From an uncultured Staphylococcaceae bacterium (GTDB lineage: Bacteria; Bacillota_I; Bacilli_A; RFN20; CAG-826), in contig CAYFSI010000001.1 of assembly GCA_964345825.1 (NCBI GenBank), positions 4,311 through 68,310 on the forward strand: a stretch of 64,000 bases of DNA, read 5' to 3'. Made by a program: the position numbers and the translations under genes. This document shows, piece by piece, positions 12,390-54,708 of the stretch. Position 1 is the stretch's first letter; each line of letters opens with the position of its first letter. The notes beneath the pieces are model-generated. The model saw only the letters and a program-made list of their open reading frames with translations, did not search any database and was not told the DNA's origin.

Positions 12390-13013
12390 TTACTTAACCA
12401 ATGTTTTTTTATTCTCTTTGATTGTTTTGCGAAGTAGGTACCACAGGATGGCTAATATTTGTAATGGAATTCCGATTATAAATATGAGATAAGAATTTGG
12501 GAAAGGAAACATCAACGCAAAGGATAGAAATATTGAAAGAGCTGAGGTCCATATCAGTCCACTAATGGAAAGAAGTAAGCCGAGGCGAAGATGATAAATT
12601 GATGTCCAAATTACAAGAAGGGTAAAACTTGGTATTAACGCGTAGATAAAAATAAGCCAATTGTAAGGGAAATCCCTAAAGAAGAATGAACAGAGCAGGA
12701 AGCTCAAAGCAGCAATGAGCCACACTAAACCAACTGACAATAGAATGATGATGAATCTCTTTTTGGCTGTTATTTGACGAGAAGTAATCACTTTTTTCGC
12801 CCGAAAGAAATCATCGATAGTAATACCATAAAAGTCAGCTAAAGCTTTCATTACGATCGTGTCAGGAACACTCTCTCCTCGCTCCCATTTCGAAACAGAT
12901 TTATCCGAATAATTAAAATGTTCTGCTAATTGAAGCTGTGTTAGACCGGCCTTTTTTCGATAGTAAATAAGATTATCGGCGATGAGCCTTGTTGTTTTCT
13001 CTAAGTCATCCAT
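12390..13013 (-). CDS. Membrane-embedded XRE-family HTH transcriptional regulator (N-terminal HTH plus about 4 TM helices)
   Basis: HTH_XRE signature (LTQLQLAEHFNYSDKSVSKWERGESVPD) followed by hydrophobic helices. Paralog of 54115..54708. Confidence 0.7.
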   Translation of the reverse strand: MDDLEKTTRLIADNLIYYRKKAGLTQLQLAEHFNYSDKSVSKWERGESVPDTIVMKALADFYGITIDDFFRAKKVITSRQITAKKRFIIILLSVGLVWLIAALSFLLCSFFFRDFPYNWLIFIYALIPSFTLLVIWTSIYHLRLGLLLSISGLIWTSALSIFLSFALMFPFPNSYLIFIIGIPLQILAILWYLLRKTIKENKKTLVK

Positions 13014-13229
13014 GGCTATATCTTACCTAAATAACAATTATTAATAAATAATTATTTCCCTTCTTAGCAATTTTATTTTCATTTAGCAAATATATTAATT
13101 GATAATTTGGACAGTGTAAAAAGTCATGTTATTTTATGTTGGTAGATTTCTTATCGATGTGATACTCTAATTTCGTCAAAGACATAGACACAAATAATCA
13201 TCGCGATAAATAAAAGGAGGCAACTTTTT

Positions 13230-13373
13230 ATGTACTTAGGGCCTAAGACTAAAAACAATGACAACGCTGTGGAAAATGAAGAACTACAAATTGTTGAAGC
13301 CATGTATCAAGCTGAAGAGTTTCCTAATTCTTTTTTAGATAATGACAATTTCTTCTTCGAACCTGAAGACTAG
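13230..13373 (+). CDS. Small acidic ORF (47 aa, MYLGPKTKNNDNAVENEELQIVEAMYQAEEFPNSFLDNDNFFFEPED)
   Basis: Strong SD AAAAGGAGG 9 nt upstream and its own downstream terminator. Below the ORF-track length cutoff. Confidence 0.35.
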   Translation: MYLGPKTKNNDNAVENEELQIVEAMYQAEEFPNSFLDNDNFFFEPED

Positions 13374-13397
13374 GCTTCAATAAGCAATCAAATCATC

Positions 13398-13425
13398 AAC
13401 GAGTGGAAATCACTCGTTTTTCTTT
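13398..13425 (+). terminator. Intrinsic terminator (AACGAGTG-GAAAT-CACTCGTT + T-run)
   Basis: Read directly. Confidence 0.5.
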
Positions 13426-13458
13426 ATTTATAATCTAGAACTGGGTAAAATAAGGCAT

Positions 13459-14928
13459 ATGGAAATGACCAAGAATAAATCTGTTAAAAGAAAAATAGAT
13501 TTTTCTGCCTTTGCAAATGTTGTTGTCTTTTTTACTTTGGAGGTTCTCGCTTTCATCGCCTTTTCGTTAGGATCATCCTATATCCTTTTTAGTGTTTTAA
13601 GTTTTATATTGCTTATTTTTCTTGTTCTTGTCACGTTCCGTCAAATCAAGATGGATGGTTTATCAAGTTTTGGCTTCTTTTTATTCCCCGTATTTATCTT
13701 TGGAGTATTAAGCGCTCTCAGCGTTTTCACAAAAGATCCAATGTTTTCCCTAGGAGGGAATGCTTTCTTTGTTCCTATTGGAATGACTTGTTTTGCTGCT
13801 TGTGGTTACTTAGTGGCATCGCTCAAATCATTCTCTATTAGCAAAGCTCTCCTTGTCATTTATTCCGCTTTAGCAATTTTAACTTTAATCAACTTGTTAG
13901 CGACAATGGTGGAATTCGCCCCATTCTACACGTTGATTTATCGCAATAAATATATTTATTACAATGGTGATATTAGCGAGGTTCCGATTTCCGAAATGGC
14001 TTTTGCCCTTATAGGTTTTTCGATTAGCGAAGTTTCGGTTGAATATTTCTCATTGTTCCCCTCTTTATTATTAACTGCGGTCATCCCTTTATTTTTCTTG
14101 AAGTTCAAACAGAACAAGACCATCTTCATGTTGTACCTAGGCTTTTCTGTTCTTGGATTATTCTCTTTATTGACCACCGTGTCCAAAACCACCTTAGTGT
14201 CGGATGCCTTGGTCTTTGTGATTGTCTTACTCGTATTGCTATTTTCGAAGTTGAATTGGAAAGGTAAAGTTCTCAAGATTATCTCCATTATTTTTGGTTC
14301 GCTCTTTCTGCTTGGATTAGTGGTGTTATTTCTCAATGCTCAAGAAGGAGCTTCAGGTATTTTCGCTACTCTTCAAGACTTCATCTCTGGCAATCAAATT
14401 TTGAATAAATTATTCAATGGTAATCGTTTTGCCGGTAGTTATAGCAAAATACTCAATGCCTTGCTTACCACTAATAGTACAGGTGATTTTATTTACCTAT
14501 TTGGATTTTATCCAACGTTTAATATTCCAGCATCTAATTCCTGGCTATTTGATAATTTAATGACCTCGGGAATATTTGGTTTCCTTTTCTTCGCCGTATT
14601 TCTCGTGCTCGGTGTACGCCAATTGCTGATTTACTATCGTAAGAGCAGCGATAATATGAAAGACAAAGCGATGATTGTCGCTTTCGTCTTCTGCTTCTTT
14701 GCTTACAGCATTATTAACTTTGACATGACGCCTTTAATCTTTTCAAGAACACTTTCCCCAATTTATCTTTCTGGTTCTTTCTTGGTGACTTTATTCTTGT
14801 TCTCTTACGCTGCTTATAAGACTCTTAACATTGCTCCAACCGTTGAAGCTGTGCAACCTCTTTTAAAGGAAAACAAACCTATAGAAAATAAGAAAGGAGA
14901 TGTTGATAATGAAACGATTTCTTTATAA
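13459..14928 (+). CDS. Polytopic membrane protein, Wzy/O-antigen-polymerase-like (about 12 TM)
   Basis: Hydrophobicity pattern, position at the head of the polysaccharide locus and a large periplasmic loop near the C-terminus. Confidence 0.5.
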   Translation: MEMTKNKSVKRKIDFSAFANVVVFFTLEVLAFIAFSLGSSYILFSVLSFILLIFLVLVTFRQIKMDGLSSFGFFLFPVFIFGVLSALSVFTKDPMFSLGGNAFFVPIGMTCFAACGYLVASLKSFSISKALLVIYSALAILTLINLLATMVEFAPFYTLIYRNKYIYYNGDISEVPISEMAFALIGFSISEVSVEYFSLFPSLLLTAVIPLFFLKFKQNKTIFMLYLGFSVLGLFSLLTTVSKTTLVSDALVFVIVLLVLLFSKLNWKGKVLKIISIIFGSLFLLGLVVLFLNAQEGASGIFATLQDFISGNQILNKLFNGNRFAGSYSKILNALLTTNSTGDFIYLFGFYPTFNIPASNSWLFDNLMTSGIFGFLFFAVFLVLGVRQLLIYYRKSSDNMKDKAMIVAFVFCFFAYSIINFDMTPLIFSRTLSPIYLSGSFLVTLFLFSYAAYKTLNIAPTVEAVQPLLKENKPIENKKGDVDNETISL

Positions 14929-53065: not shown

Positions 53066-53070
53066 AAACA

Positions 53071-53097
53071 AAGCCACAATTCGTGGCTTTTCTTTTA
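53071..53097. terminator. Bidirectional intrinsic terminator after nusG (AAGCCAC-AATTC-GTGGCTT + T-run)
   Basis: Read directly. Convergent with the minus-strand gene. Confidence 0.6.
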
Positions 53098-53108
53098 ACT
53101 ATTTATGC

Positions 53109-54002
53109 TTAAATAATCTCAGTTTCTAGGGAGGGAAATTCCTCTGGAATTCCAAAGGTGAAATTCCCGGATAACGTACCAGTTGCATCGAACCATCCGA
53201 ACTTCTTTACCTTGTATTGTTCAAATATTTCGGTCGAAGAGATGACAAAATTCTCATCGAAATTAATTTTTATATTAACGTTTTTAAAGATAGGAGCTTC
53301 CTCGAGCCCACCCATTTTTATCATTTGTTTAACATAGTAAAGAACACTAAAAAACGGGTCCAAATCGAGGGATATCTGAAGATGATTTTCTTCAATTGTG
53401 ACCGAAGAGGTTTCAAGGCAAGTAAAGCTTGAAATAATATATGGTGAAAAGACAGATAAATCATATCCCCACTCTTCATTAAATTCTTCAATGGAAAGAG
53501 TTGTTTCGGTGTCGGGATTCCACACCATCTTTTTATTTTGATTATATTTTCCTCGATACCAAGTGATATTTTCGTTTTGATAGAATCTTTTAGCGACACT
53601 AATAAGACCTTTTGATATTGTCTCATAGAAGTATTCATCCCCGTTTTTTAATTGATAAGCGAGAATACTTTGTTTTAATCCCCCCGTGTTAACCAAACCG
53701 CGTGCTTCAAACTTGATGTGATCATTCTTTTTGCTCTGATATATTGCTAGATTGAAAAGTTGATAAGGATTGTACTTTTCTTGATAATCAATTAAGCTTG
53801 GAGATTCTAAGCGAAAGGTTTCGAAATCAGAAAACAAGGTAGAATTGTCATCTAAATAATCTTCGGGATCAAAATCTTCATAGGTAGGAGGAACATTATG
53901 GAGATTATCATAAATTAAATAACCCCCAATGCCTCCAGTTGCCAAGACAATTAATCCAATTGAAGAGAAGATAATAATCTTTCTAGTGGTGTCTCTTTTC
54001 AT
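53109..54002 (-). CDS. Hypothetical membrane-anchored protein (N-terminal TM plus about 260-aa extracytoplasmic domain)
   Basis: Hydrophobicity. Divergent from the XRE regulator. Confidence 0.5.
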   Translation of the reverse strand: MKRDTTRKIIIFSSIGLIVLATGGIGGYLIYDNLHNVPPTYEDFDPEDYLDDNSTLFSDFETFRLESPSLIDYQEKYNPYQLFNLAIYQSKKNDHIKFEARGLVNTGGLKQSILAYQLKNGDEYFYETISKGLISVAKRFYQNENITWYRGKYNQNKKMVWNPDTETTLSIEEFNEEWGYDLSVFSPYIISSFTCLETSSVTIEENHLQISLDLDPFFSVLYYVKQMIKMGGLEEAPIFKNVNIKINFDENFVISSTEIFEQYKVKKFGWFDATGTLSGNFTFGIPEEFPSLETEII

Positions 54003-54114
54003 ATCCTCATTATTCTAGTTAAAAAAACAGAATTAAGAAACACTCTTTGTTTTTTTGATGGTAAAAAATTTCATAGAGTTGTCAAGAAATGTTATTTGTT
54101 GTATCTTTAGAGCC

Positions 54115-54708
54115 ATGGAAAATATCCGCGAAATTATCGGTGAAAACCTTGCCTCATTAAGAAAAGAAGCTAAACTTACTCAGCTAGAATTAGCGGAAAA
54201 GTTTAATTATTCCGATAAAGCAGTATCAAAGTGGGAAAAAGGCGACACAATCCCTGATATCGAGACTTTATACAATCTCTGTCAGTTTTATGGCGTGACA
54301 CTTGATTATTTGACTCATAAAGGCTCTCCGAGCGAGAAACAGGAATATATTCTTCAAAAGAAAGGTGACTTTCGAAAAAAAGTCTTGATTACTCTCTTGC
54401 TTTTGATGATTGTTTGGATGATTGCAACGATTGCCTTTGTCTATACATCCATTGGTATGAATCAAGGATATTGGCAATCATTTATCTGGGCTGTTCCAGC
54501 TTCTTGCTTATTAGTGCTCGGAGTTAATCGAAGACTCTTCCGTTCTAGCACCCTAAGCCTTGTTTGTGAATCAATTGGGATATGGTCTTTATTGGCTTCT
54601 TTCTATTTCTCATTTTCCATTTGGAGCCTATGGCCAATATTCCTATTGGGAATACCATTACAAGCCGCGCTTGGAATGTGGTATTTTATGAACAAATCCA
54701 AAAAATAA
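54115..54708 (+). CDS. Membrane-embedded XRE-family HTH regulator (paralog of 12390..13013)
   Basis: HTH_XRE (LTQLELAEKFNYSDKAVSKWEKGDTIPD) plus about 4 TM. Shares the C-terminal motif IGIPLQ…LWY with its paralog. Start at the internal ATG 54115 (MENIREI). Confidence 0.7.
   Translation: MENIREIIGENLASLRKEAKLTQLELAEKFNYSDKAVSKWEKGDTIPDIETLYNLCQFYGVTLDYLTHKGSPSEKQEYILQKKGDFRKKVLITLLLLMIVWMIATIAFVYTSIGMNQGYWQSFIWAVPASCLLVLGVNRRLFRSSTLSLVCESIGIWSLLASFYFSFSIWSLWPIFLLGIPLQAALGMWYFMNKSKK

What the first reader, a model, noticed from the sequence alone, without database searches (positions are those of the whole stretch)
12390..54708. Two paralogous membrane-embedded XRE-family regulators, each divergently paired with envelope or surface genes
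The products of 12390..13013 (minus strand) and 54115..54708 (plus strand) share a cytoplasmic HTH_XRE domain (…LTQLxLAExFNYSDKxVSKWExG…PD…) followed by about four transmembrane helices and a conserved C-terminal IGIPLQ…LWY segment. This is a one-component membrane sensor-regulator architecture, duplicated within 42 kb. One copy sits divergently at the head of the surface-polysaccharide locus, with a small acidic ORF in the shared intergenic region. The other sits divergently from a membrane-anchored extracytoplasmic protein, inside an insertion that splits nusG from rplK, next to ktrAB. The repeated pairing with envelope-associated partners suggests a family of membrane-state-responsive regulators controlling adjacent surface functions. 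I cannot place this architecture in a characterised family from memory.
Basis: partly seen in the sequence, partly recalled or inferred. Interest (0 to 1): 0.55.

Follow-up and report, generated by a model that had tools for sequence, protein, structure and literature searches.

The report
Paired membrane-embedded XRE transcription regulators
Two anciently duplicated genes encode DNA-binding regulators fused to a four-helix membrane anchor, members of a large unstudied family in gut Firmicutes that usually sits beside genes for lipid-binding proteins, so it is a reasonable lead for membrane or lipid sensing but not a new kind of system.

Summary
A (12390-13013, minus) and B (54115-54708, plus) are 36% identical over their full length (E 2e-36). 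Their membrane halves alone still match (E 2e-10). Each has an N-terminal HTH_3/XRE domain, then four transmembrane helices with almost no external loops.

This architecture is already known from BcrR of Enterococcus, but the membrane domain shows no detectable homology to BcrR. It has no Pfam or NCBIfam model.

The family has thousands of members of about 200 aa in uncultured Bacilli and Clostridia.
- Most members are transcribed as leaderless mRNAs.
- About 44% carry one 15-bp palindrome, TCTACYNNNRGTAGA, just upstream of their own promoter. That is strong evidence for DNA binding.
- Neither window copy has a recognisable operator.

The partners are only partly "envelope" genes.
- B's divergent partner is conserved and has a LolA/LppX lipid-carrier fold.
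- A's conserved divergent partner is the 47-aa acidic ORF, which has its own terminator.
- Family-wide, the commonest neighbour is DegV (fatty-acid binding). In some Clostridia it is mcsA-mcsB-clpC.

Best reading: intramembrane, probably lipid-responsive, one-component regulators. I rate it a new variant of a known kind, of moderate interest.

The parts
12390..13013 (-). Regulator A, 207 aa: XRE HTH (about residues 3-70), basic linker, four TM helices, basic C-tail
   Evidence: ORF; Pfam HTH_3 E 6e-13; AF2 model with four TM helices; topology; 2998 homologs
13020..13025 (-). -10-like hexamer TAAGAT, 6 nt before the ATG of A, with no Shine-Dalgarno sequence. It implies a leaderless transcript. 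The -35 is weak.
   Evidence: Sequence. Conserved in orthologs L003 and L177. About 100 of 159 family members have a hexamer matching TATAAT at 4 or more of 6 positions, ending 4-10 nt (most often 6 nt) before the ATG.
13230..13373 (+). 47-aa acidic protein gene (12 D/E, 2 K/R) with a GGAGG ribosome-binding site, divergent from A
   Evidence: ORF. Called as a 47-aa gene in orthologous loci. Peptide conserved in L003, L007, L015, L017 and L177, with longer acidic versions in Coprobacillus L028 and L032.
13398..13428 (+). Intrinsic terminator after the acidic ORF
   Evidence: Terminator scan. Hairpins at the same place in six orthologous loci, with different stem sequences.
13459..14928 (+). 489-aa polytopic membrane protein (about 10 hydrophobic segments), no Pfam; first gene of the glycopolymer cluster
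   Evidence: syntenic in L003, L007, L015, L017 and L177
14900..15937 (+). 345-aa predicted lipoprotein (lipobox LTAC), no Pfam; unrelated to the 297-aa partner of B
11480..12331 (+). DegV (fatty-acid-binding FakB type), convergent with A; the most widely conserved neighbour of the family
   Evidence: Pfam DegV E 2.5e-52; adjacent to the regulator in 32 of 111 loci with both flanks
54115..54708 (+). Regulator B, 197 aa, same architecture as A
   Evidence: 6718 homologs
54058..54107 (.). Back-to-back divergent promoters. P_B is TTGTCA-17-TATCTT (54079-54107, plus strand), ending 7 nt before the ATG. P_297 is TTGACA-16-TACCAT (54085-54058, minus strand). The two -35 boxes overlap.
   Evidence: Promoter scan; sequence; conserved in L176
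53109..54002 (-). 297-aa protein: N-terminal TM anchor plus an extracytoplasmic domain with a LolA/LppX/LprG/RseB-like half-barrel fold; conserved divergent partner of B
53070..53090 (.). Bidirectional terminator shared by nusG and the 297-aa gene
54707..54736 (+). Terminator (13-bp stem) after B, facing ktrA; B is monocistronic

Best explanation
A and B are two anciently diverged paralogs of a large, uncharacterised family of transmembrane one-component transcription regulators. Each has a cytoplasmic XRE helix-turn-helix joined by a short basic linker to a compact four-helix membrane bundle with no external domain.

Shown:
- The architecture and topology.
- The size of the family.
- An invariant recognition helix, NYSDK[AS][VI]SKWE.
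- A conserved 15-bp palindromic operator next to the regulator's own promoter in about 44% of relatives.
- Predominantly leaderless promoters.
- Conserved partner genes.

Inferred: the protein binds DNA as a dimer while it stays in the membrane, as BcrR does. It reads an intramembrane cue, most likely lipid or fatty-acid composition or the physical state of the bilayer. It then adjusts transcription of itself and of the divergent neighbour.
- For B, the target is the membrane-anchored LolA/LppX-fold lipid-binding protein transcribed from the overlapping back-to-back promoter.
- For A, the target is the divergent 47-aa acidic protein gene, and possibly the glycopolymer locus behind it or the adjacent DegV. 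The acidic protein may itself modulate A.
For: Paralogy and architecture.

The membrane domain is essentially always fused to an N-terminal domain of about 80 aa. A search with the TM domain alone against 1.84 billion representatives gave 293 hits, nearly all about 195-230 aa with the match at residues 80-200.

DNA binding:
- The exact motif TCTAC-N5-GTAGA occurs 74 times in the 250 bp upstream of the regulators (41 kb in total).
- It occurs 11 times in the other 1.40 Mb, a 219-fold enrichment. Shuffles give a mean of 0.045.
- It is present in 73 of 168 loci, and in 25 of 31 loci where DegV is the divergent gene.
- The half-site spacing is one helical turn.
- The recognition helix is invariant.
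- The HTH fold matches DNA-binding repressors such as ImmR, P22 c2, 434 repressor and C proteins.

Leaderless promoters.

Lipid link:
- DegV is adjacent in 32 of 111 loci, in both orientations, and in both Bacilli and Clostridia.
- Locus L025 has DegV, a 297-like gene and a 980-aa gene in one divergent operon next to the regulator.
- A GDSL lipase is the divergent neighbour in 8 loci.

Precedent for this working principle: BcrR and HigX (PMC13384398) and the census of transmembrane regulators (PMC10269533).
Against: - There are no experimental data for any member of the family.
- Neither window copy has a recognisable operator. The canonical palindrome and the clade variants are absent or at chance level in the window. 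Palindromes seen in relatives are not conserved in the closest orthologs of B.
- The signal is inferred only from the neighbours.
- Neighbour counts come from related, partly redundant metagenome contigs. About 12 of the 17 loci with a 297-like partner belong to one human-gut lineage.
- Part of the DegV linkage could be inherited gene order.
- More than half of the loci show none of the recurrent partners.
- The AF2 model is a monomer built from only 17 sequences.
Confidence: 0.55

Rival explanations
1. They are BcrR-type sensors of a cell-wall-active antibiotic (the bacitracin / lipid II cycle) and switch on a resistance operon.
For: Same length, same XRE HTH and same four-TM layout as BcrR of pTW9. 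The HTH domains align at E 3e-13.
Against: The membrane domains show no similarity by BLASTP or hhalign; only the HTH aligns. No ABC transporter or undecaprenyl-diphosphatase lies next to A or B, or next to the recurrent partners in 168 loci. No BcrR model appears in the NCBIfam hits.
Confidence: 0.08
2. The membrane bundle is only a tether. Activity is set by a protein partner or by proteolysis, not by a lipid ligand. For A, the acidic 47-aa protein would act as an antagonist, in the manner of SinI with SinR or of a DNA mimic. For others, the HTH would be released by cleavage.
For: The acidic mini-gene is conserved next to A-clade regulators even where the polysaccharide genes are replaced by others, as in Coprobacillus L028 and L032. 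It is always an independent unit with its own terminator. SinR is among the structural matches of the HTH. Small antagonists encoded next to XRE repressors are established for SinI/SinR (my knowledge).
Against: The acidic ORF occurs only in the A clade (7 of 152 loci passed the acidity threshold, plus the window and L003-L006, which fall just below it). It cannot explain the rest of the family. Conserved Trp, Pro and Gln/Glu positions inside the TM helices suggest more than a passive anchor. No protease gene is linked. No complex prediction could be run.
Confidence: 0.2
3. The HTH is not used for DNA binding. The proteins would be structural membrane proteins that use an XRE-like fold for protein contacts, as RodZ does with MreB.
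For: RodZ shows that a membrane protein with a cytoplasmic XRE HTH need not be a regulator (my knowledge). The two window copies lack an identifiable operator.
Against: A palindrome is enriched 219-fold beside the family's own promoters and the recognition helix is invariant. There are four TM helices and no periplasmic domain, unlike RodZ. No mreB or cell-shape genes are adjacent.
Confidence: 0.05

Closest known systems
BcrR (Enterococcus faecalis bacitracin sensor and regulator)
   Same: About 200 aa, with an N-terminal XRE HTH and four C-terminal TM helices without an external domain. It is a one-component regulator that stays in the membrane (PMC13384398, PMC10269533).
   Different: The membrane domain is not detectably homologous. 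The neighbours are not bcrABD-like. This family is mostly leaderless and has its own operator consensus. The ligand is unknown.
HigX (Caulobacter) and fused LytTR membrane regulators
   Same: A four-helix membrane bundle with no periplasmic domain, fused to a DNA-binding domain, and regulating envelope-related genes (PMC13384398).
   Different: HigX has a LytTR DNA-binding domain at the C-terminus, after the TM helices. Here an XRE HTH lies at the N-terminus. The sequences are unrelated.
Lambda cI / P_RM-type XRE repressors
   Same: XRE HTH, palindromic operator abutting the -35 of the regulator's own promoter, leaderless mRNA, and a divergent promoter pair (lambda facts from my knowledge).
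   Different: Lambda cI is soluble, with a C-terminal oligomerisation and autocleavage domain, and sits in a phage. A and B are chromosomal, with conserved synteny and no phage genes.
SinR/SinI and SlrR/SlrA
   Same: An XRE repressor with a small protein gene encoded next to it (A plus the 47-aa acidic ORF).
   Different: No sequence similarity was tested or expected. SinR is soluble. An antagonist role for the acidic protein is only a hypothesis.
LolA / LppX / LprG / RseB superfamily (for B's partner)
   Different: No Pfam match to the LolA or LppX families. It is anchored by an N-terminal TM helix rather than being a soluble periplasmic carrier or a lipoprotein. The host appears to be a single-membrane Firmicute (inferred from the names of related MAGs).

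Membership tests
XRE / HTH_3 (Pfam PF01381) | Match to the HTH_3 profile above the gathering score | tested here: met
   A 49 bits and B 58 bits against a cut-off of 23
Transmembrane transcription regulators (class, PMC10269533) | DNA-binding domain and at least one TM helix in one polypeptide | tested here: met
   HTH plus four TM helices
BcrR family | N-terminal XRE HTH followed by four TM helices, about 200 aa | tested here: met
BcrR family | Sequence homology of the membrane domain to BcrR | tested here: not met
   BLASTP and hhalign align only the HTH. The test used a single BcrR sequence, so very remote homology is not excluded.
BcrR family | Adjacent bcrABD-type target operon (ABC transporter plus undecaprenyl-diphosphatase) | tested here: not met
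   Window neighbours; recurrent neighbours in 168 loci
BcrR family | Bacitracin-dependent activation while bound to DNA | not testable with these tools
   Needs experiment
RodZ | Single TM helix followed by a periplasmic C-terminal domain | tested here: not met
   Four TM helices, outer loops of 6 residues or fewer, C-terminus cytoplasmic
RRNPP regulators (Rgg, PlcR, ComR) with an adjacent peptide gene | C-terminal TPR peptide-binding domain | tested here: not met
   No TPR in Pfam. The C-terminal half is a TM bundle. Rgg and ComR match only through the HTH.
LolA/LppX superfamily (297-aa partner of B) | Unclosed beta half-barrel fold | tested here: met
LolA/LppX superfamily (297-aa partner of B) | Sequence match to a LolA or LppX_LprAFG family profile | tested here: not met
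   No Pfam or NCBIfam hit at E up to 0.1
LolA/LppX superfamily (297-aa partner of B) | Binding of lipid or acyl chains in the cavity | not testable with these tools
   Needs biochemistry
DegV (neighbour of A) | Match to PF02645 above the gathering score | tested here: met
   178 bits against a cut-off of 27

The most novel reading that the evidence does not exclude
The family is a previously unrecognised lipid-homeostasis circuit of gut Firmicutes. An XRE regulator senses bilayer or fatty-acid state inside the membrane and directly controls fatty-acid-binding DegV/FakB proteins and LolA-fold lipid carriers. In some Clostridia it occupies the place of CtsR at the head of mcsA-mcsB-clpC, which would link membrane state to the protein-quality-control stress response. 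In the A clade, a dedicated acidic mini-protein acts as its antagonist.
Probability: 0.2. Interest if true: 0.7.

Novelty: new variant of a known kind. Interest (0 to 1): 0.45.

Why it matters
Membrane-embedded one-component regulators are thought to be common, but very few have been studied. BcrR is the only well-studied XRE example I know of.

This family is large: thousands of members across gut and rumen Bacilli and Clostridia. It also comes with three ready experimental handles:
- a sharply defined operator;
- leaderless promoters;
- recurrent lipid-binding partner genes.

If the lipid-sensing reading is right, it would show how fatty-acid-scavenging, reduced-genome gut Firmicutes couple membrane composition to gene expression. 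For annotation, it gives a name and a start-codon rule to proteins now labelled only "helix-turn-helix transcriptional regulator".

Tried and rejected
- **Homology to BcrR.** I fetched the annotated bcrR from pTW9. Only the HTH aligns. Membership is rejected, but the analogy stands.
- **Plasmid collection search with A**. Only HTH-level hits. An Enterococcus plasmid hit (L001) has a single TM helix and a different C-terminus.
- **Family operator in the window.** The best PWM hit, at 10922, lies inside the tmRNA gene. The B-clade variant TCTCY-N5-RGAGA is at chance level: 11 found against 6.7 expected. The A-clade palindrome CYCTTAT..ATAAGRG has no match.
- **Footprinting of the A and B intergenic regions with close orthologs.** It showed conserved promoter blocks but no convincing shared palindrome.
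- **Homology between the two partners.** The 345-aa lipoprotein of the A locus and the 297-aa partner of B are unrelated (hhalign probability 0.3%).
- **Fold searches with the regulator model.** They return only the HTH and generic helical bundles. The afdb50 library was unavailable.
- **Pfam on the 489-aa, 345-aa, 368-aa and roughly 980-aa proteins.** Nothing significant.
- **Literature searches** for a characterised member, or for a link between a membrane XRE regulator and DegV. Nothing found.

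
Full report
**1. The observation**

Both ORFs are present as described.
- A (12390-13013, minus strand, 207 aa) and B (54115-54708, plus strand, 197 aa) align end to end at 36% identity, E 2e-36.
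- With the HTH removed, the hydrophobic halves still align at 33% identity, E 2e-10.
- Pfam places HTH_3, HTH_19 and HTH_31 at the N-terminus of both proteins and finds nothing in the C-terminal 120 residues. NCBIfam has no model above its cut-off.
- An AlphaFold2 model of A, built on a 17-sequence alignment (mean pLDDT 84), shows a five-helix HTH and then four long helices.
- The four segments are hydrophobic in both proteins. Basic residues sit before TM1, between TM2 and TM3, and in the C-tail. The two outer loops are uncharged and at most six residues long.
- The topology is therefore N-in/C-in, with no extracytoplasmic domain. Any sensing has to occur within or at the membrane.
- Trp98, Trp119, Trp155, Pro183 and Trp191 of A and the GIPLQ/E motif in TM4 are conserved across 17 diverse members.

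**2. The family**

- A retrieves 2998 proteins and B 6718, almost all 195-230 aa and full length. Those that carry a name are called only "helix-turn-helix transcriptional regulator" from Bacilli or Erysipelotrichales MAGs.
- A search with the membrane domain alone against 1.84 billion representative proteins finds 293 hits. Nearly all have the domain at residues 80-200 of a protein of about 200 aa, so the domain is practically always fused to the HTH.
- Scans of reference genomes and metagenomes gave 160 loci. They come from gut and rumen Bacilli, Coprobacillus, Christensenellaceae, Oscillospiraceae, Acutalibacteraceae, Borkfalkia, Scatosoma and other Clostridia, nearly all MAGs.
- A and B are each closer to members from other lineages (43-50%) than to each other (36%).
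- Orthologs of both occur in the same related MAGs (HNX16417 with HNX16661, and HPS19200 with HPS19093). The duplication is old, and "within 42 kb" is incidental.

**3. Evidence that the family binds DNA**

- The recognition helix NYSDK[AS][VI]SKWE is invariant in 152 distinct regulators.
- A 15-bp palindrome, TCTACYNNNRGTAGA, occurs once per locus in 73 of 168 non-redundant loci.
- It occurs 74 times in the 250 bp upstream of the regulators (41 kb in total) and 11 times in the remaining 1.40 Mb. That is a 219-fold enrichment. Shuffled upstream segments give 0.045 sites on average.
- Its end lies most often 39 or 49-52 nt before the ATG. That puts it next to, or one helical turn upstream of, the -35 box.
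- Half-sites spaced by one helical turn fit a dimer.
- About 100 of 159 regulators have a -10 hexamer matching TATAAT at 4 or more of 6 positions. It ends 4-10 nt (most often 6 nt) before the ATG, often behind a TTGACA-like -35, with no Shine-Dalgarno sequence. These are leaderless mRNAs.
- A (TAAGAT, 6 nt) and B (TTGTCA-17-TATCTT, 7 nt) fit this pattern. This fixes B's start at 54115.
- An operator abutting the -35 of a leaderless auto-promoter, paired with a divergent promoter, resembles lambda cI at P_RM/P_R. That comparison is my own.

**4. The window copies lack a recognisable operator**

- The canonical palindrome is absent from the window. The best PWM hit lies inside the tmRNA gene.
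- B-clade relatives (L009, L010, L095, L175) carry a variant with the same geometry, TCTCYTNNNARGAGA. The window and its 85% ortholog L176 do not.
- A-clade relatives (L007, L015, L017) carry CCCTTAT..ATAAGGG-type palindromes that the window lacks.
- The operators of A and B remain unknown.

**5. The partners of B**

- The divergent 297-aa gene is conserved. Homologs of 27-35% identity sit divergently from B homologs of 48-57% identity. They are also found in L095, in L175/L176 and in a human-gut lineage at about 22% identity.
- In most of these loci a gene of 960-990 aa follows. Its product has one N-terminal TM helix and a domain of about 940 aa with no Pfam match.
- L175 shows secE-nusG, then the 974-aa and 300-aa genes, then B. 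The window and L176 have lost the large gene.
- The promoters of B and the 297-aa gene are back to back with overlapping -35 boxes. Both genes are monocistronic and bounded by terminators.
- ktrAB is not a conserved neighbour.

**6. The partners of A**

- Orthologs at 48-73% identity keep DegV, A, the 47-aa ORF, a membrane protein of about 490 aa, a lipoprotein of about 300-340 aa, TupA, Wzx and a GT4 glycosyltransferase.
- The 47-aa peptide is conserved: LGP[KR].[KR]N...NEEL[QE]I[VL]EA...F[FY]FE[PS]E[ED]. It has 12 acidic and 2 basic residues.
- It is followed in every ortholog by an intrinsic terminator whose stem sequence differs between lineages.
- Coprobacillus loci keep a 56-58-aa acidic ORF with a terminator next to the regulator, although the genes behind it differ: a small membrane protein and an SBP_bac_5 lipoprotein.
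- The unit linked to A is therefore the acidic mini-gene, not the polysaccharide cluster as such. Other A-like loci (L016, L018, L020) have neither.
- DegV stays next to the regulator throughout the A clade.

**7. Family-wide neighbourhoods**

| Neighbour and position | Loci |
|---|---|
| DegV, divergent upstream | 28 of 133 with an upstream flank |
| DegV, convergent downstream | 9 of 133 |
| DegV, either side | 32 of 111 with both flanks |
| 297-like, divergent upstream | 17 of 133 (about 12 from one gut lineage) |
| mcsA-mcsB-clpC, directly downstream on the same strand | 17-18 of 133 |

- The mcsA-mcsB-clpC identities were checked with Pfam. In Bacillus, CtsR occupies that position (my knowledge).
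- The operator lies in the DegV-regulator spacer in 25 of 31 divergent cases.
- L025 has DegV, a 249-aa gene, a 297-like gene and a 980-like gene in one divergent operon.
- A GDSL lipase is the divergent gene in 8 loci.
- Two unrelated kinds of lipid-binding protein recur beside a regulator that can only sense inside the membrane. This is the basis for proposing a lipid or bilayer cue. It is an inference, and the counts are not phylogenetically independent.

**8. Comparison with known systems**

- BcrR (fetched from pTW9) has the same layout. Only the HTH aligns, by BLASTP and by hhalign, and no bcrABD-like genes are nearby.
- The class of transmembrane transcription regulators is established (PMC10269533).
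- PMC13384398 describes BcrR and HigX as four-helix-bundle regulators whose DNA binding depends on the membrane domain.
- Solved structures match only the HTH.
- RodZ, RRNPP regulators and phage repressors are excluded as families (see the membership table).
- I found no paper on this family.

**9. Verdict**

- The kind of system is known, but this family is uncharacterised and has distinctive features that can be tested.
- I rate it a new variant of a known kind, with interest 0.45.

Noticed in passing
L015-L174 (relatives); not in the window: A 15-bp palindrome, TCTACYNNNRGTAGA, sits once per locus next to the regulator's promoter in 73 of 168 loci. It is enriched 219-fold over the rest of the loci. 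I take it to be the operator of the family.
   Followed up: yes
window 13014-13025 and 54079-54114; relatives L003-L177: Most family members have a -10 hexamer ending about 6 nt before the ATG and no Shine-Dalgarno sequence, so they are leaderless mRNAs. Public gene calls for B (216 aa, P0121) start too far upstream.
   Followed up: yes
L019, L030 and about 15 other Clostridia loci: The regulator lies directly upstream, on the same strand, of mcsA-mcsB-clpC. In Bacillus, ctsR occupies that position. I did not check whether these genomes lack CtsR.
   Followed up: partly
L175:1006-3930; L009, L010, L013; absent at window 53066-53108: A 960-990-aa protein with one N-terminal TM helix and a large domain with no Pfam match follows the LolA-fold gene in relatives. 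The window and L176 have lost it. Its function is unknown.
   Followed up: partly
L025:1-5809: One divergent operon holds DegV, a 249-aa protein, a 297-like protein and a 1015-aa 980-like protein next to the regulator. This links the two kinds of partner.
   Followed up: partly
window 10891-11288: A tmRNA gene (Rfam, 98 bits) lies between the 368-aa membrane protein gene and DegV. It contains the best chance match to the family operator.
   Followed up: yes
window 9618-10724 (minus): A 368-aa membrane protein with no significant Pfam match is syntenic with the A-DegV pair in L003 and, at 32% identity, in Coprobacillus L028 and L032.
   Followed up: no
window 58222-58321 and 42594-42666: A ribosomal protein L10 leader and a tRNA, both detected by Rfam at gathering score.
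   Followed up: no
L040:5787-6365 and 6922-7500: Two identical regulator copies with flanking DegV genes lie in inverted orientation on one contig. This is either a palindromic duplication or an assembly artefact.
   Followed up: no
L175:5769-7043: In a 68% ortholog locus an ISL3 transposase lies directly after B, where the window has ktrAB. The right flank of the nusG-rplK insertion is therefore variable.
   Followed up: no
window 51162-51998: A 278-aa ORF with hydrophobic segments near both ends and no Pfam match lies upstream of rpmG. L176-aa and 251-aa genes with no Pfam match at the same position.
   Followed up: no
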